Origin: Cystobasidiomycetes sp. EMM_F5 | Lineage: Eukaryota | DNA length: 64,000 nucleotides | Assembly (NCBI GenBank): GCA_051047955.1 | Contig: JBPGPT010000003.1 | Location: forward strand, 310,001-374,000 | Direction of reading: 5' to 3' | Shown here: positions 32,194 to 56,510 of the stretch, one piece after another | How positions within the stretch are numbered: position 1 is the stretch's first letter | How the letters are laid out: every line of letters begins with the position of its first letter | The notes under the pieces: generated by a model | Seen by the model: only the letters and a program-made list of their open reading frames with translations | What the model was told of the DNA's origin: nothing | The model's database searches: none | Translations under genes and position numbers: made by a program

Positions 32194-34058
32194 ATGTCGA
32201 CTCCAGGCTCGATAGAGTCCGTGCGTCGAGCAGGACATGAGGAGGGCCACTTGCTTGAATCCGCCAACGGTCACGACAATGCGGCATCATATGCACCACT
32301 CAATGAGTCGACGCCAGTCTGGGGATTCTACTGGTACTCCTGGGCTGTAGAGGTTTACGCTATCGTGACGCTCAGCTTATTCTTGCGTTGGTCCACGAGA
32401 ACCACAAAATCGGGACCGAGACTGACGTTTCTCTGTAGCGATAACGTTAGAGCAGTATGCCCGTGAAGCCGCTTATCTCTCTAGTGACCATACGATGCCG
32501 TGTAATGGCGAAAAGACAGTCTGCGAAGTACACCTTGCAGGAGTGTGGGTAAAGTATGCCGACTACATTGACATCGTGAAAACGTGTGCACATATACTGA
32601 GGCGTTGTTTTAATCAAACAGCACCGCTTCCTTCTCTCTGTATACATACTCCGCATCAGTCGCGCTGCAAGCAATTGTAGTCACTGCGATTTCGCGGCTC
32701 GCAAACAATACCGTCGCGCGTGCCAGGCTATTGAAGCAATTTACACTCCTCGGTTCTCTATCATGTCTGGTATTCTTGGTCATACCGGCGCAGTCTACCG
32801 CATGGCCAGCATGCGCCGTGTTGGCATTATCGGGCAATACGGCATTCGGCGCGGCTATCGTATGCTTAAATGCGTACCTGCCTTTGGTTGCAGAGTATCA
32901 CACGAGAAAGCATGGCAGCAGTCTTCAGCCATTTACAAACTCGCCTGAATCGACAGAAGCAATTTCTACGATATCTGCGAAGGGCATTGCGGCGGGTTAC
33001 GCGGCGGGAATTATCCTTCTTTCACTAATGCTCATACCTGTCACTCTCCTGAACGGTTCTTTGTGGTCGTTTAGACTAGCAATTGCTGTGAGCGGACTCT
33101 GGTGGCTATTGTTCAGCATCCGTTAGTTCACCCAATTAGACGCTGTGTTGGTCATGCTGATTCTGCTTTCAAGCCGCAATCTTGTGGCTGCCTTCCAGCA
33201 GTCCGAAACCTCAGATTATGCCATCGGCATCTCCATCACAACCTTGGGTCGAGTTATGGGAAATTCTACGGGGCTATCACCGAATACCGCAAACCTTCAA
33301 GTTTCTCGCAGCATGGTTTGTCATGTCAGATGCATTTGCCACGATCAGCTCCACAGCTATTCTTTTTGCCAAAAACTCACTGGGTATGCCTGCTTCATCT
33401 CTCATACTCGTGGGCGTCTTGTGAGTCTCCGCTGTACAGAGCAGAGATGCTCTGAAGCTGAATATAGCTCAGGACTCCACTTAGCGGGATTGCCGGCGCT
33501 CTAGGGTGGCCGAAGATGCAAAAGATCTTGCTCACGTCAAACATTACCACATTAAAACTTATTCTCGGCTTGACCACGTTGGTAAGTAGATGTCATACAG
33601 ATGTACAATTCCTGGAGGCTGAATTCCGTTTTTAGATTCCCGCTTATGGTCTCGTTGCGTTGCGTACACCCATTGAACTTTTTGCACTAGCTTGCTTATT
33701 CGGTAAGTCTTTCTTCTGCACATATGCACCACAGCCATCCCAAAGAATGAACGCTCTAGGTTTCCTGTACGGTGCCCTGCAATCATATGCCAGGGCGTGT
33801 TTTGCTCAACTCATACCGCCGGGGGAGGAAGCTCGCTTCTTTGCCTTATATTCGATCACCGACAAGTCTTCGTCGTTTCTTGGACCAGCCGTCGTAGGGC
33901 TCATTGCGGATTTTACTGGCTCCATTCGATATGGCTTTATTTTCATACTGGTCGCACTGTTATTGTCGCTACCCATATTGGCTTCTGTCAATATGCAGAG
34001 AGGCCACTTCGACGCAGTCCAATCCCTTACGACCGACCCTGATGCACCAGATGGATGA
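32194..34058 (+). CDS. ATG22: Atg22-like vacuolar amino-acid efflux MFS permease
   Basis: WGFYWYSWAVEVY, LEQYARE, GAAIVCLNAYLP, ISAKGIAAGY, FLAAWFVMSDA, YARACFAQLIPPGEEARFFALYSITDKSSSFLGP. Confidence 0.9.
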
Positions 34059-51490: not shown

Positions 51491-51774
51491 GTTTTCTGTC
51501 ATCAAAAACTTTGCCGAGGTCTGCTGCGGACACTGTCATCCAGCAAGGAGCATTTGGCCGAGTCGAAAAACATGATTGGTATGGAGTCAGAGCAAATTCA
51601 ATGCAAGCGCTTCGGTCGCTCTCGGCGCCAATTCCATTTGATCCAGTCACAACATCACAACAACTTGAAGAATGCGTTTCTCCACTTTCTTCGTACCGAA
51701 TATGTTTTTTCCTAATATGGCCAAATAACACTCCACGAATAGTCTTTAAACCCAGCAGCAAGGTATCAGTCTTG

Positions 51775-53354
51775 CTACATTAGATACTGCTCCGCCGCAG
51801 ATTAGTTCTAGCGGCAATCTGTGCATCGGAGCCCACTCACTGCTGATGCGATCAGGTTCTGCGCGATTTGATCCTGTACCGCGTTCAATATTACGTTGAT
51901 ACCAGCAGTGTCGGTGCAACATGTGTTATGCACATAGATGCGCTTGCTCTGTCGGGCGCCTTATGAGTCGACCTCCTCTGTATGCTTGTGAGAGCAAGAC
52001 TTACCGAATGATTCTGCTCCAACATGGATTGTCCCAAGTAGGCCAGCACATGCTGCAGGGAACGCGGACCACGATAATCTGGCAGATGCTCTCGCAAATC
52101 AATCGTAGGTAGCTTTTGTGCAAGGATGTCAATCTTGTTCAAAAATAAAATAATCTGACTGTTCTTGAACCAAGCGCTGTTGGCAATTTGACCGAACAAT
52201 GACTGAGCCTCCTCGAAGCGTTTCTGTAAGCATGAAGAGGCTTGTTAATTCAATTCTTGATCCTGACATGATCGCACTCACCACCTGCGAATCTTCGTAA
52301 AGCCGCTGTACTCAAGTCAGGGTCAATGAGTAGTTATATTTGAGTACGCTGGCACTTACTTGATCTAGCTCGGACACCGCAATGAGGAAGAGCAATACGT
52401 TGACACCTTCAAAACAGGAGACCCATTTGCGCCGTTCCGAGCGTTGACCTCCAACCTGCTGGATGGTGAGTGTACATCTCCTCTGATGAAGCTGACCACT
52501 CACATCCATTACCCGATATATCCGATCTCCAACATGGAAGGAAGTTTCTGATATCCCTATGGTTCACAGTATAAGGCGTTTGCTCGATACGAACGATATT
52601 GCGTTACTCGCCTGTGGTCTTGACACGACTGCGCAGGATGTCTTCATTGGTGGGGACGAAGTCTCCTACAGAATACCGGTGTATATTGTCGAAGAAGAAT
52701 GCAGCCGAGTCGTTGAGTTGATATTCCGCAGAGCGCATTACGCAAGTCTTCACATTCGCCGAAGCCCAAAGACCCTCAAGAGCCATGAAGTGCGCCGGTG
52801 ACAAGTGGTCCAGCAATTGCGGCAGCTCGGCAATCATTGCTGCCCAGCGCGATTCTTCGGGAGTCGTAAACGGCAAATTCAGTTGCTCCATCGCTTCGCT
52901 GTCTTCTATATCAGCACCTGAATCGCCACCGATGATGCGAAATACCCACATCACGACATTCATACTGAGAACGAGGTTTGACAGAATGACGGGTACATAG
53001 TCCAGCCTATCTCCCATCGAATATGCTCGTTCGTGATACTTGAGACGCATCTGTTTAAGGACTGACAAATCAGAAAACAAAAACATGCATTAATGTCTAA
53101 TGATGAGATCGGGAGCACGAGCCTTTGCTGCGTACCGGTGCTCTTTCCTGACTCTGTAAACGTGAGAAGGGTATCATTTTAGTCGTAAGACAACTCGGCA
53201 GCTTGCACAACTCGCCTCCCGTCCCGAGCAAAAGAATTTTGATAGTCTTGTTTTGAGCCTGTCGATCTGCTTCTAACTGCTTCTCGATAGACTTGCTGAT
53301 TGAATTGGCGTCATCATCGCCCGTGGTCATAGATTTGGATGAGTTGCAGCCCAT
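51775..53354 (-). CDS. Heterotrimeric G-protein alpha subunit (divergent)
   Basis: MGCNSS (myristoylation/palmitoylation), [50 protein letters not shown]-terminus NLIASA|YLM*. Confidence 0.93.
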
Positions 53355-54021
53355 TTTGACGGTTCCAGAAAACGTGTGTTGGTCTATGGAGTCAGAAGCA
53401 CTTGGATAGTGTGACAGTAATAACGTAAACCTGTCAATGTTCCGTGCGAGTGCTGCTAGACGGAATCCTGAGCGGAGAGCGCTAGGGTTAGTCTGAAAAA
53501 TGTGGCCGACGAAATCTGGGATGAAACAATGCAGATGCCGAACTCTGTCTCACGATCCCCTTGGCAGCGAGTTGTACTACGGCTGACGCAATACTCCGAC
53601 ACGTTATAACGGTTCCGACGGTCTTAACGACTGTACTGAACCGAGCGCGAGCTTGAAAAGCGGAGACAGAACGTACTGAGAGTAGACTCGACGAAGGAGT
53701 ATCAGAGATGTTACGTGTATTTGTATCCAGGGTATGGTAGTCGCTGTTCATCGTCACCACTGTCTCCAAAACCGGCTGGCAGCCGTAATCTTCGAAGGTG
53801 GAGACAAGCTAAACGAAAAAGTTTCGATTGTGTGAGAAGCGCCAGCGCGCATAGTTCGCGGCGTAGGATATTGCTTCCGACATGTTTATAAGTGGGCGAT
53901 ATAGTCGGTCTCCGCATACACAATATTTACTACGACTCGACGAAATGGTTGATGGCTCTTGCAGTTTGAAGTTGTGATTATTGATATCATTGTATTTGAG
54001 TACCGAAGCGCTAAACTTTAC

Positions 54022-54164
54022 GGGGTCTTAACTCAGTGGTAGAGGTGTGTTCACAGTCGCCCGTTGACAAGACTTGGTCCTGACGTTCCCCACTAGTTTC
54101 CGCCTGCAGTAGCGTTTCGTCTTAGTTCAGCGGAATGTCAGGTGTTCAAGTCACCTAGATCCCT
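54022..54164 (+). tRNA. tRNA-Cys(GCA) with two introns: 54045-54096 (spliceosomal-like, D-arm position 24/25) and 54110-54128 (canonical 37/38)
   Basis: Acceptor GGGGTCT/AGATCCC plus U73. D-stem ACTC/GAG|T. Anticodon stem TCCGC/GCGGA with loop CT-GCA-G|A. T-stem AGGTG/CACCT with loop TTCAAGT. Spliced length 72 nt. Confidence 0.9.
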
Positions 54165-54165
54165 G

Positions 54166-54172
54166 TTTTTTT
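54166..54172 (+). terminator. RNA polymerase III oligo-T terminator
   Basis: T7 run starting two nt after the tRNA discriminator base. Confidence 0.8.
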
Positions 54173-54402
54173 GTCCGCCTCAATTGCAAGTACGCAAATA
54201 CACCTGCAGTCAATCATACACCGACATACTACAGCTAGCTATATGCACTCTCTTTTATCAGTGCTGGAATCGACGAGCTAGGTTATCCAATGCCAAACGA
54301 AATGCTGTCAAACAATACTAACGCGACTGACAACATTCACAGCATGTATAGTCGCGACAGCGGAGAGCTGAAGCTGAAGACTATGCACTTGATGCCTCAC
54401 CG

Positions 54403-55439
54403 ATGAGTAGTTATAACCCTTTTGGATGGAGCGATACCTACGCTCGCGACAAGGTGATGTGGCATCGACGACAGGCAAACAAGGCCTCACCAACTGTCGA
54501 TCCGAAAAAAGTTACCGAGGCGGAAAACAAAGTTAGGACGGCTGAGACGACACTCAGCAACGCGCCGGATGCAGCGGCCAAACAAGCCGCGCAGGATGCG
54601 CTTGATAAAGCACAGGAAGAAGCTAAGAAACTCAAAGGAGTCGCGACTTCTGACGGGAGTGCGAGCACAACCGCACACACCGTGATGTATCTCTTCACCC
54701 GCATGCTTCTCAGCATTGAAATGGGGCTCGTGAGCACACACTTCAAGCTCATAGAACTGTGCTGAATCTGTGTCAGCTCTTCGAATTGGTAGGCTCTTTC
54801 GTACTGGCGAATATGGACTATGCTGGTTTCGATTTTGGCTCGCACAAGAATTCGAAAGGCATCGTGACGATTGGGGCGTTGGGGGGTGTCTCTATCGGTG
54901 TCGTCTTGATTGCTTTTGATATGTATGCACAGAACAATCCCAATATCAATGGCTTGGGCCACAAGCCAAGCAGCGTGGCCTCCACAGAGTCTAAAGAGTC
55001 AGACATTGGGGCGGCGTTAGTGCGAATGATCTTGTGGCCTGGTCTGGGTGCCCTATCCGGTGTGACCGGCACTTTGTTATGGTGAGCTCAAACACGCAGG
55101 GGAGTTCGGCACGTGCTCATCAGGCCATACGTAGGCACCTAACACAAGTAAGTTGGCGGACTGGCAAGTCATGATGATTTTGACGGATAATGCAGAATTC
55201 CCGTCCAGAACCAGCAGCGAAGGTGTGTACCATTATAGGAGTTGACGTTTAGTAACTGATCATGCCTTTTCAGTCTCGTGCAGCAACCGGTGCATTAGTA
55301 CAAGCTATTGGTAAGCTGAAAATGCTGCCCAATGTGTTTTATGTAACTAACGTTTGCCAATTGAAACAAATTTACTCAACGAAGGCGCAGCTGGTAAGAG
55401 AAAGAAACGTGAGTTGACATGCAGGACTCATGTGATATG
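54403..55439 (+). CDS. Hypothetical membrane protein (helical N-terminus, Gly-rich hydrophobic segments); 3' exons approximate
   Basis: ORFs 54403-54765 and 54759-55085 joined by an intron. Hydrophobic segments GIVTIGALGGVSIGVVLIAF and ILWPGLGALSGVTGTLL. Several short downstream exons. Confidence 0.5.
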
Positions 55440-55785
55440 ATTTCAGTGGCTATATCTGCGCCATCGACTGTACAGCTCGTAGCTGTGGCATTGCGAGAGG
55501 CGGTGCCTAGCAAATGAAGACTCGGATGTAAGGTCGAGCGCAGATGGTAGAATTACACGCACACCAAACGGAGTCCCTTGTGTACTGATCAACCGCACCT
55601 AGCGGTTCATCCACCACTTGAGCCCTGTGCGAATTATGTGCAAATAGTCTTGGAGTCATCTTGGGAGCCACTCTGTCACGGCGGCCAAATCATCTGTAAT
55701 CGCTGTGAGAGTGAGAAATGATGCCGGACGTGCTATGTCAGACTTACGGTTAGACGGATCCAAGTCTTAGGTGTCATTTGACGTA

Positions 55786-56209
55786 TCACAATTCATCTCG
55801 ATGCCGATTTGCTGCATGTAGCATTGCGAGTAGGTCTTCCACACTGCGAAGTGAGCAGGCGTCAGCTCTAGTTGTTGACACCACAACCCCGTGATTGTCT
55901 GCAAGTCTGATTGACGGACGTGAGATCATCAGCATTAGAGACAACGCGCTCTCCCTCAGGCTGGTTATGCTCCGCATTCTCCAGGATTTCAGCGTCTGCC
56001 TTTTCCCGCTGCACATCGAGTTCTTGATCCTCCTTCATGAAGCCTCTCTGCGGGCGAAGCAGCTTTGGTTGACCTTCTCGGATGGCGGCACTCGGTGATT
56101 GTGACGATTCCAATGCAGCAGCCGATACGGCAAGCACCAGAAGCAGTAACGTGACGAGTGAGATGGTCAGACTTGCAGCAGATGCGTGGAACCTGCCTCG
56201 GTACCGCAT
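55786..56209 (-). CDS. Small signal-peptide protein ending in RDEL (putative ER-lumen resident)
   Basis: ISLVTLLLLVLAVSAAA hydrophobic N-terminus. After a GT...CTGAC...CAG intron the frame ends DDLTVEDLLAMLHAANRHRDEL*. Confidence 0.6.
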
Positions 56210-56510
56210 ATTCTGGAATCGGCCTATGCGAGACCGCAAGCGGTAGATGTCTGCCACCGGCAATGTTCCTTCGGAGGCGAAAGCTATAACGTAACGAAAG
56301 AATCCCGCATACAACAGAGCCTACAGTTATGTGGTTTACCTTCCCTTCAACTCCTCAGTCCAATGGACCAAGCCAAGCCACCTCAGCGGAGGACTGGGAT
56401 GGCTATTGCGCAACTTCTGATGACTAAGTAGAACGCAACAGGCTGTCGCGGACATCACACCCACTCGATACCGTGGTAAAGCGACCGTTCACAGCAGCTG
56501 ACAGCTTGAG

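What the first reader, a model, noticed from the sequence alone, without database searches (positions are those of the whole stretch)
54022..54172. tRNA-Cys gene interrupted by an apparent spliceosomal (mRNA-type) intron in the D-arm, plus a canonical tRNA intron
Seen in sequence: removing 54045-54096 and 54110-54128 gives a perfect 72-nt cloverleaf, GGGGTCTTAACTCAGTGGTAGAGTTTCCGCCTGCAGAGCGGAATGTCAGGTGTTCAAGTCACCTAGATCCCT. All four stems pair, the anticodon is GCA, the discriminator is the Cys-typical U73, A and B boxes are intact and a T7 terminator follows. The 19-nt insert is at the usual 37/38 site. The 52-nt insert sits between positions 24 and 25 and has AG|GTGTGT as donor, CCTGAC as branch point (A at 54083) and CTAG as acceptor. 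That size and those signals match this genome's mRNA introns; the same GTGTGT donor appears at 55223. I see no obvious bulge-helix-bulge. Established knowledge: nuclear tRNA introns are removed by the SEN/TSEN endonuclease. Spliceosomal introns are known in U6 snRNA of S. pombe and some basidiomycete yeasts, and in fungal rRNA genes. I know of no described case in a tRNA. Inference: this tRNA may need both the spliceosome and TSEN to mature, and genes like it would be missed or called pseudogenes by standard tRNA scanners.
Basis: partly seen in the sequence, partly recalled or inferred. Interest (0 to 1): 0.95.

Follow-up and report, generated by a model that had tools for sequence, protein, structure and literature searches.

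The report
tRNA-Cys gene with mRNA-type intron
A cysteine tRNA gene of a basidiomycete yeast is interrupted in its D-arm by a short insert that looks just like the messenger-RNA introns of the same genome, and similar interrupted genes occur in environmental DNA, so some tRNAs may need the spliceosome to mature, which has not been described before.

Summary
Removing 54045-54096 (52 nt) and 54110-54128 (19 nt) gives a 72-nt tRNA-Cys(GCA). ARAGORN calls it only after the 52-nt insert is removed. ARAGORN and Rfam find nothing in the raw locus.

The insert has GTGTGT, CTGAC (branch A 13 nt from the end) and TAG. It matches the 51-74-nt mRNA introns of neighbouring genes. It has no bulge-helix-bulge and is unstructured. 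Chance is about 5-8 in a million per position and length.

A metagenome scan gave new support. Two further tRNA-Cys(GCA) genes (L005, L089), from a different lineage, carry 53- and 50-nt GTNNGT..CTAAC..CAG inserts at the same 24/25 site. Their intron bodies are unrelated and their exons are 70 of 71 identical. Two sister genes (L055, L009) lack the insert.

The window comes from a Cystobasidiomycete. That is the class of Erythrobasidium (Rhodotorula) hasegawianum, known for mRNA-type introns in U1, U2, U5 and U6 genes.

Eight literature searches found no spliceosomal intron in a tRNA. No RNA data or whole genome could be reached, so splicing itself is inferred.

Best reading: a working tRNA gene that needs both the spliceosome and TSEN (confidence 0.65). 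Main rival: an inactivated gene (0.2).

The parts
54022..54044 (+). tRNA-Cys exon 1 (nt 1-24: acceptor 5' strand, U8, D-stem 5' strand, D-loop AGTGGTA, G22-G24); holds the A-box region
54045..54096 (+). 52-nt D-arm insert read as a U2-type spliceosomal intron: 5' splice site GAG|GTGTGT (54045-54050), branch CTGAC 54080-54084 (A 54083), 3' splice site TAG 54094-54096. No T run longer than 2, and it folds worse than shuffles.
54097..54109 (+). exon 2 (nt 25-37: T25, T26, anticodon stem 5' strand, loop CTGCAG with anticodon GCA)
54110..54128 (+). 19-nt canonical tRNA intron at 37/38 (ARAGORN places it one base further 3')
54129..54164 (+). exon 3 (nt 38-73: anticodon stem 3' strand, variable loop, T-arm AGGTG-TTCAAGT-CACCT with the B-box region, acceptor 3' strand, discriminator T73)
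54166..54172 (+). run of seven T, a Pol III terminator-like signal
51800..53354 (-). context: multi-intron G-alpha gene transcribed divergently (ATG at 53354). Its introns serve as this genome's mRNA-intron reference: 53135-53062 (74 nt, GTACGC..CTGAT..CAG), 52359-52306 (54 nt, GTAAGT..CTGAC with A 11 nt from the end..CAG), and 53215-53154 (62 nt, GC-AG).
55223..55273 (+). context: 51-nt candidate mRNA intron of the downstream plus-strand gene with the same GTGTGT donor (GTGTGT..CTGAT..CAG)

Best explanation
This is a working nuclear tRNA-Cys(GCA) gene with two introns of different kinds. Inferred: RNA polymerase III transcribes it from the internal A and B boxes, which lie in exons 1 and 3, and stops at the T7 run. 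The 52-nt D-arm insert is a normal U2-type GT-AG intron. U1 and U6 would recognise GAG|GUGUGU, the branch-point factors would recognise CUGAC 13 nt from UAG, and the spliceosome would remove the insert as a lariat. Spliceosomal introns in ncRNA genes such as U6 are the precedent. The insert splits the 3' strand of the D-stem, so the pre-tRNA cannot form its L-shaped body until the insert is gone. The tRNA splicing endonuclease measures from that body, so the 19-nt 37/38 intron would be cut only afterwards. Shown: the sequence anatomy, the match to local mRNA introns, the lack of a BHB, and the existence of the same design in two other tRNA-Cys genes with conserved exons and splice signals. Inferred: transcription by Pol III, removal by the spliceosome, and the order of the two splicing steps.
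For: (1) In-silico excision restores a tRNA-Cys that ARAGORN calls, and the raw locus is invisible to ARAGORN and Rfam. (2) The insert carries all three spliceosomal signals in the right places. Chance is about 5-8e-6 per position and length. (3) Its size and signals match mRNA introns in the two flanking genes and elsewhere in the window. Examples: 54 nt GTAAGT..CTGAC(11)..CAG; 74 nt, joining ESGKST|V|LKQMRL; 52 nt GTTGGT..CTGAC(13)..TAG at 32387-32438; 51 nt GTGTGT..CTGAT..CAG at 55223. (4) None of the three registers gives a BHB: the 4-bp central helix has 2, 1 or 3 of 4 pairs and the flanking helices are poor. The insert folds worse than shuffles, z +1.42. (5) Independent genes: of 122 matches to the 5'-exon pattern in metagenome contigs, 4 are eukaryote-type tRNA-Cys(GCA) genes, and 2 of those (L005, L089) have 53- and 50-nt inserts at the same 24/25 site. 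Their signals are GTTGGT..CTAAC(11)..CAG and GTTTGT..CTAAC(10)..CAG. Both pass the same motif test, lack a BHB and are unstructured. (6) Exons of the four genes are 70-71 of 71 identical, while the canonical introns and flanks have diverged. The two D-arm inserts are no more alike than shuffles: 115 of 500 shuffles score at least as well. Conserved exons and splice signals around a free intron body is the pattern expected of a spliced, functional gene. (7) No T run of 4 or more in any of the three inserts, so Pol III could read through. (8) The window's SIS-domain protein is 95% identical to one from Cystobasidiomycetes sp. EMM_F5. Erythrobasidium (Rhodotorula) hasegawianum belongs to that class. 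A review (PMC5855946, passages read) cites spliceosomal introns in U2, U5 and U1 snRNA genes from papers on that yeast and says U6 has introns in some organisms; that its U6 gene is among them is recalled.
Against: There is no RNA evidence at all: no sequencing run was listed for the locus, so neither expression nor the spliced junction has been seen. No whole genome is held, so I cannot say whether uninterrupted tRNA-Cys genes exist that would make this copy dispensable. The window gene is a single sequence with no orthologue recovered. The comparative support comes from a different tRNA-Cys family of unknown taxon. Pol III transcripts lack the cap and the CTD coupling that help mRNA splicing (established knowledge). 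The GT..AG register is one of three equivalent placements.
Confidence: 0.65

Rival explanations
1. Inactivated gene. An mRNA-type intron was inserted into a tRNA gene, for example by reverse splicing into the abundant tRNA followed by reverse transcription and recombination, or by an introner-like element. The Pol III transcript cannot splice it out, so the copy is dead or dying, and other tRNA-Cys genes do the work.
For: No expression data and no genome to count tRNA-Cys genes. In the metagenome family, insert-free sister genes exist (L055, L009), so insert-bearing copies need not be essential. A recent insertion would leave the exons intact.
Against: In the window gene both introns lack Pol III stop signals and the terminator directly follows the gene. 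In the L005 family, exons of insert-bearing and insert-free genes are 70-71 of 71 identical, although flanks and both kinds of intron have diverged beyond alignment. Both inserts still keep GTNNGT, CTAAC and CAG. That is hard to square with dead copies. No second copy of the 52-nt insert occurs in the 64-kb window, so nothing points to a repeat family.
Confidence: 0.2
2. The D-arm insert is removed, but not by the spliceosome. The tRNA splicing endonuclease or another nuclease would cut it, as happens for ectopic introns of archaea, Cyanidioschyzon merolae and nucleomorphs.
For: Ectopic and multiple tRNA introns removed by the endonuclease are known in a eukaryote (PMC3728597, abstract seen in the listing). 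The gene already uses that pathway for its 37/38 intron.
Against: There is no bulge-helix-bulge in any of the three registers of any of the three inserts. The inserts are less structured than shuffles. An endonuclease route would not explain why GTNNGT, CTRAC at 10-13 nt and YAG are the only things the three inserts share.
Confidence: 0.07
3. The insert is kept in the mature RNA as an extra arm at the D-stem/anticodon-stem junction, giving a tRNA-like RNA with some other role.
For: In a fold with the acceptor, anticodon and T stems forced, the insert loops out between D-arm elements.
Against: The inserts have no conserved or stable structure. Insert-free sister genes encode the same exons. The conserved features are splice signals, not helices.
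Confidence: 0.03
4. Chance resemblance: a tRNA fragment pair with a random spacer.
Against: The signal set has a chance of about 5e-6 per position and length. The same design recurs in two unrelated loci.
Confidence: 0.01

Closest known systems
mRNA-type (spliceosomal) introns in small nuclear RNA genes: U6 of Schizosaccharomyces pombe, and U1, U2, U5, U6 of Rhodotorula hasegawae (= Erythrobasidium hasegawianum). Source: Tani & Ohshima 1989 and 1991, Takahashi et al. 1993 and 1996, as cited in PMC5855946 (passages read).
   Same: A GT-AG intron with a branch site sits inside a short, highly structured non-coding RNA gene. U6 is a Pol III gene (established knowledge). The fungal class is the same as the window's nearest named relative. 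Reverse splicing is the proposed origin.
   Different: The host here is a tRNA, which is not part of the spliceosome, so the argument that proximity to the catalytic centre favours insertion does not apply directly. The gene also carries a second intron of the endonuclease type.
Spliceosomal introns in fungal U3 snoRNA genes (PMC5832005, passages read) and in rRNA genes of fungi (Bhattacharya et al. 2000, cited in PMC5855946)
   Same: Normal spliceosomal introns in abundant structural RNA genes of fungi, mostly recognised by sequence signals alone.
   Different: Different host RNA. Those hosts have no other intron system of their own.
Ectopic and multiple introns in nuclear tRNA genes of the red alga Cyanidioschyzon merolae (PMC3728597, abstract only) and non-canonical BHB introns of archaeal tRNAs (PMC4090602 and PMC4033280, abstracts only)
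   Same: A tRNA gene is interrupted outside position 37/38, including in the D-arm. More than one intron occurs per gene, and standard scanners miss these genes.
   Different: Those introns are defined by a bulge-helix-bulge or a relaxed form of it and are cut by the tRNA splicing endonuclease. Here no BHB is present, and the conserved features are GTNNGT, CTRAC and YAG.
Canonical eukaryotic tRNA intron at 37/38
   Same: The 19-nt insert 54110-54128 fits it in position and length.
   Different: It does not account for the 52-nt D-arm insert.

Membership tests
U2-type spliceosomal (GT-AG) intron | GT at the 5' end within an extended donor consensus (here GTNNGT, preceded by AG) | tested here: met
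   GAG|GTGTGT at 54042-54050. L005 has GAG|GTTGGT and L089 has GAG|GTTTGT.
U2-type spliceosomal (GT-AG) intron | Branch-point consensus CTRAY a short distance upstream of the 3' splice site | tested here: met
   CTGAC with A 13 nt from the end. L005 has CTAAC at 11 nt and L089 at 10 nt.
U2-type spliceosomal (GT-AG) intron | YAG at the 3' end | tested here: met
   TAG in the window, CAG in L005 and L089.
U2-type spliceosomal (GT-AG) intron | Length and signals within the range of the same genome's mRNA introns | tested here: met
   mRNA introns supported by homology or ORF-joining are 51-74 nt. The set is small, and part of it was selected by motif.
U2-type spliceosomal (GT-AG) intron | Removed by the spliceosome through a 2'-5' lariat | not testable with these tools
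   No RNA run listed.
tRNA (cloverleaf, Rfam RF00005) | Four-stem cloverleaf with conserved D-loop and T-loop residues, an anticodon loop and a discriminator | tested here: met
   Met only after in-silico removal of both inserts. The genomic locus gives no RF00005 match even at E up to 10.
BHB-type non-canonical tRNA intron (archaea, C. merolae) | Two 3-nt bulges holding the cut sites, separated by a 4-bp helix (or a relaxed hBH/HBh' form) | tested here: not met
   Central helix has 2, 1 or 3 of 4 pairs with poor flanking helices in the three registers. The same holds for L005 and L089.
Canonical eukaryotic tRNA intron | Located one base 3' of the anticodon (37/38), short, cut by TSEN | tested here: met
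   Position and length are met for 54110-54128. Cleavage by TSEN is not testable here.
Pol III type 2 (tRNA) gene | Internal A and B boxes, a T-run terminator, and no internal T run of 4 or more | tested here: met
   The A-box and B-box regions lie in exons 1 and 3 and were read by eye against a recalled consensus. T7 is at 54166-54172. The longest T run is 2 in the insert and 3 in the 19-nt intron. Transcription itself was not tested.
tRNA pseudogene | Decayed stems or conserved residues, lost terminator, no selection on exons | tested here: not met
   The cloverleaf and terminator are intact. Exons in the L005 family are 70-71 of 71 identical against diverged flanks. A very recent inactivation cannot be excluded for the window gene.

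The most novel reading that the evidence does not exclude
Spliceosomal introns at D-arm position 24/25 of tRNA-Cys(GCA) are a conserved, functional gene design present in at least two eukaryotic lineages. In the Cystobasidiomycete, every tRNA-Cys gene carries one, so decoding of cysteine codons depends on the spliceosome. The three intron systems of eukaryotes would then not be separate: one RNA would pass through two of them in a fixed order. Standard tRNA scanners would also leave some fungal tRNA sets incomplete.
Probability: 0.3. Interest if true: 0.95.

Novelty: new variant of a known kind. Interest (0 to 1): 0.86.

Why it matters
Reviews up to 2026 treat tRNA splicing and spliceosomal splicing as separate systems (PMC12530127; PMC13149111). 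A tRNA that needs the spliceosome would be the first link between them.

It would widen the list of non-coding RNAs that acquire mRNA-type introns (U1, U2, U5, U6, U3, rRNA) to one that is not part of the splicing or ribosome-assembly machinery. That bears on the open question, stated in PMC5855946, of what decides where such introns are inserted.

It would show that Pol III transcripts other than U6 can be spliced.

There is also a practical consequence. ARAGORN and Rfam miss all three genes, so tRNA sets of such genomes may look incomplete.

The claim can be tested directly with tRNA sequencing of a cultured Cystobasidiomycete.

Tried and rejected
- Whole genome of the window: not held. I could not count tRNA-Cys genes or look for other interrupted tRNAs.
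- Sequencing runs for 51500-56500: none was listed and no RNA holder was listed, so read laying could not be used.
- Earlier notes of this scan, by words, place and sequence: nothing relevant.
- Records behind the metagenome loci: not held. Only 300-600 nt of flank was available.
- Taxon of the L005 family: flank ORFs gave no Pfam hit (0 of 10 ORFs), and the protein atlas gave no usable hit for one L055 ORF. The taxon stays unknown.
- Genome-contig scans: 0 hits for the exon-1-plus-donor pattern and 0 for the window's 3' exon. That collection holds only prokaryotes.
- Viral-contig scan: 1 hit (L122). It lies in what reads as coding sequence with no tRNA continuation, so I took it as chance.
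- A motif-free ORF-joining screen for mRNA introns was too lax. 8.7% of all GT..AG pairs passed, against 17% of motif-bearing pairs. I relied instead on introns fixed by G-alpha homology.
- A repeat or introner origin: no second copy of the insert in the window. This cannot be judged genome-wide.
- The MAFFT alignment of the five loci was not informative for the window against the L005 family, and my L009 coordinates there missed its upstream flank.
- A pattern scan for GTGTGT-type introns had a gap setting that excluded the insert itself and was at chance level (2 matches against 2.2 expected).

Full report
**The observation**

- Joining 54022-54044, 54097-54109 and 54129-54164 gives exactly the 72-nt string in the finding. 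It folds into a four-stem cloverleaf.
- ARAGORN with introns allowed finds no gene in the genomic locus.
- After removal of 54045-54096 alone, ARAGORN calls tRNA-Cys(gca) with a 19-nt anticodon-loop intron. After removal of both inserts it calls tRNA-Cys(gca). After removal of the 19-nt intron alone it calls nothing.
- On the raw 64-kb window, ARAGORN finds 0 tRNAs and Rfam finds 0 families at gathering score.
- A permissive Rfam search of 53800-54400 (E up to 10) gives no tRNA match either. The gene is invisible to standard tools.

One refinement applies. Exon 1 and the insert both end in AG, so three placements of the insert give the same product (22/23, 23/24, 24/25). Only one of them is GT..AG.

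**What the 52-nt insert looks like**

It begins GTGTGT after an exonic AG. It has CTGAC at 54080-54084 with the A 13 nt from the end, and it ends TAG.

Introns of the same style occur in the flanking genes.
- In the divergent G-alpha gene (Pfam G-alpha; homologues), a 74-nt GTACGC..CTGAT..CAG intron joins ESGKST|V|LKQMRL.
- In the same gene, a 54-nt GTAAGT..CTGAC..CAG intron has its branch A 11 nt from the end.
- Elsewhere in the window, an ORF-joining candidate at 32387-32438 has the same length, the same branch distance and the same acceptor (52 nt, CTGAC, 13, TAG).

I defined the full signal set as GTNNGT at the start, CTRAY with its A 8-20 nt from the end, and YAG at the end.
- It occurs at 8.3e-6 per position-and-length pair in the window.
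- It occurs at 5.5e-6 in 30 dinucleotide shuffles.
- Even with three registers, chance is below about 2.5e-5.

My motif-free ORF-joining screen was too lax to serve as an independent intron set. The local reference set is therefore small.

**What it is not**
- I tested the strict bulge-helix-bulge geometry at all three registers. The 4-bp central helix has 2, 1 or 3 of 4 pairs and the outer helices are poor.
- The insert folds worse than its shuffles (z +1.42).
- It has no second copy in the window.
- At 52 nt it is too short for a self-splicing intron.
- It has no T run longer than 2, and the 19-nt intron has none longer than 3. A Pol III transcript could therefore run through to the T7 block at 54166-54172.

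**Independent examples**

I scanned metagenome contigs for the 5' exon with a free acceptor stem.

ARAGORN calls an ordinary tRNA at 111 of the 122 matches, mostly bacterial Val, Lys, Ile and Ala. The 11 not called are:
- L005 and L089;
- six others of different kinds (L024, L064, L067, L076, L104, L114);
- three cut by a locus end.

Four loci are eukaryote-type tRNA-Cys(GCA) genes of one family. They share the acceptor GGGCCGG, a 15-17-nt intron at 37/38 and T-run terminators.

Two of the four, L005 and L089, carry an insert directly after GGTAGAG and before T25, the same site as in the window.
- L005:624-676 is 53 nt, GTTGGT..CTAAC..CAG, with the branch A 11 nt from the end.
- L089:324-373 is 50 nt, GTTTGT..CTAAC..CAG, with the branch A 10 nt from the end.

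The other two, L055 and L009, have the same exons without the insert. They fix the exon junction as GAG|TGT.

After removal of its insert, L005 is called tRNA-Cys(gca) with a 15-nt intron, exactly as L055 is. ARAGORN's calls for L089 and L009 are confused (Asn and Ala). Their exons are identical to each other and 70 of 71 identical to L005 and L055.

Both inserts pass the motif test, lack a BHB and are unstructured (z +1.01 and +0.89).

Apart from the splice signals, the two inserts are no more alike than shuffles: 115 of 500 shuffles score at least as well. The canonical introns and flanks have also diverged.

Conserved exons and conserved splice signals around an unconstrained intron body is the signature of an intron that is spliced from a gene that is used.

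I could not place this family taxonomically. Its tRNA differs from the window's in the acceptor, anticodon and T stems, so it is a different lineage or a very different isodecoder.

**Whose genome this is**

A SIS-domain protein of the window is 95% identical to a protein of Cystobasidiomycetes sp. EMM_F5. The next named hits are Rhodotorula species at about 41-44%. The G-alpha's best hits are also Pucciniomycotina.

Rhodotorula hasegawae is a synonym of Erythrobasidium hasegawianum, class Cystobasidiomycetes. In the passages I read of the review PMC5855946, the papers cited for spliceosomal introns in U2, U5 and U1 snRNA are all on R. hasegawae, and U6 is said to carry introns in some organisms. 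That R. hasegawae's U6 gene is one of them is my recollection of Tani and Ohshima 1991. The review proposes reverse splicing as the origin and calls the determinants of insertion unclear.

Fungal U3 snoRNA genes also carry normal spliceosomal introns (PMC5832005, passages).

The window's class therefore already has a record of mRNA-type introns in small structured RNA genes.

**Mechanism proposed**

Shown: the anatomy, the match to mRNA introns, the absence of a BHB, the recurrence of the design and the exon conservation.

Inferred:
- Pol III transcribes the gene from the A and B boxes, which remain in exons 1 and 3. Their spacing grows by 71 nt, which I recall is within known tolerance.
- The spliceosome removes the D-arm intron.
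- Only then can the D-stem and the L-shaped body form. The tRNA splicing endonuclease needs that body to measure its cuts at 37/38.

**Rivals**
- An inactivated copy is the main rival (0.2). I have no RNA data and cannot count tRNA-Cys genes. The L005-family exon conservation argues against it for that family, but not directly for the window gene.
- Endonuclease-type removal (0.07) fails the BHB test.
- Retention as an extra arm (0.03) lacks any conserved structure.
- Chance is excluded for practical purposes.

**Literature**

I made eight searches.
- 'spliceosomal intron' / 'tRNA gene' / 'D-arm'.
- 'mRNA-type intron' + tRNA: 8 papers, of which 7 were listed, none judged from the listing to describe an intron in a tRNA.
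- 'spliceosomal intron' / 'tRNA intron' / 'non-canonical' / 'fungi'.
- tRNA / spliceosome-dependent / pre-tRNA / GT-AG / Pol III.
- The phrase 'spliceosomal introns in tRNA': 0 papers.
- 'spliceosomal-type' or 'spliceosomal-like intron' / 'tRNA gene' / 'noncoding RNA genes'.
- 'Rhodotorula hasegawae' + intron.
- 'U6 snRNA intron insertion'.

None turned up a spliceosomal intron in a tRNA gene.

Passages of a 2025 paper (PMC12530127) call the three nuclear intron types completely unrelated to each other. [quoted passage not shown]

Subscription-only papers are outside the library, so absence from print is not proven.

**Verdict**

Splicing itself remains to be shown.

I rate this a new variant of a known kind: an mRNA-type intron in a structural RNA gene, here for the first time in a tRNA and alongside a canonical tRNA intron. 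Interest is high.

Noticed in passing
window 53215-53154 (-) and about 52609 (-): The G-alpha gene next to the tRNA appears to use GC-AG introns with a GCGAGT donor. One is 62 nt and joins LLLGTG|ESGKST. A second GCGAGT follows directly after ...VKTTG.
   Followed up: partly
L104:301-623 and L114 (minus strand): A tRNA-like gene has an insert of roughly 200 nt where the anticodon loop should be, and an encoded CCA end. It is probably a group I intron tRNA of a bacterium or organelle.
   Followed up: no
L005, L055, L089 (plus strand) and L009 (minus strand), about 70 nt upstream of each tRNA-Cys gene: All four genes share a TATA-like box about 35-45 nt upstream and a TCATCA-type motif about 10-20 nt upstream. 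The rest of the flanks has diverged.
   Followed up: no
L005, L055, L089, L009 tRNA-Cys exons: All four genes have an A28-C42 mismatch in the anticodon stem, read by eye from the sequences. It is a family feature, not decay of the interrupted copies.
   Followed up: partly
L024:601-700 and L064:601-700: Two eukaryote-looking tRNA genes with T-run terminators match the 5'-exon pattern, but ARAGORN does not call them. L024 looks like tRNA-Ala(TGC) with a 37/38 intron and an imperfect anticodon stem. L064 has a shortened anticodon arm.
   Followed up: no
window 53355-54430: The tRNA gene sits in a roughly 1.1-kb gap between two divergently transcribed protein genes: G-alpha on the minus strand and an unnamed plus-strand gene whose likely start is near 54430.
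   Followed up: partly
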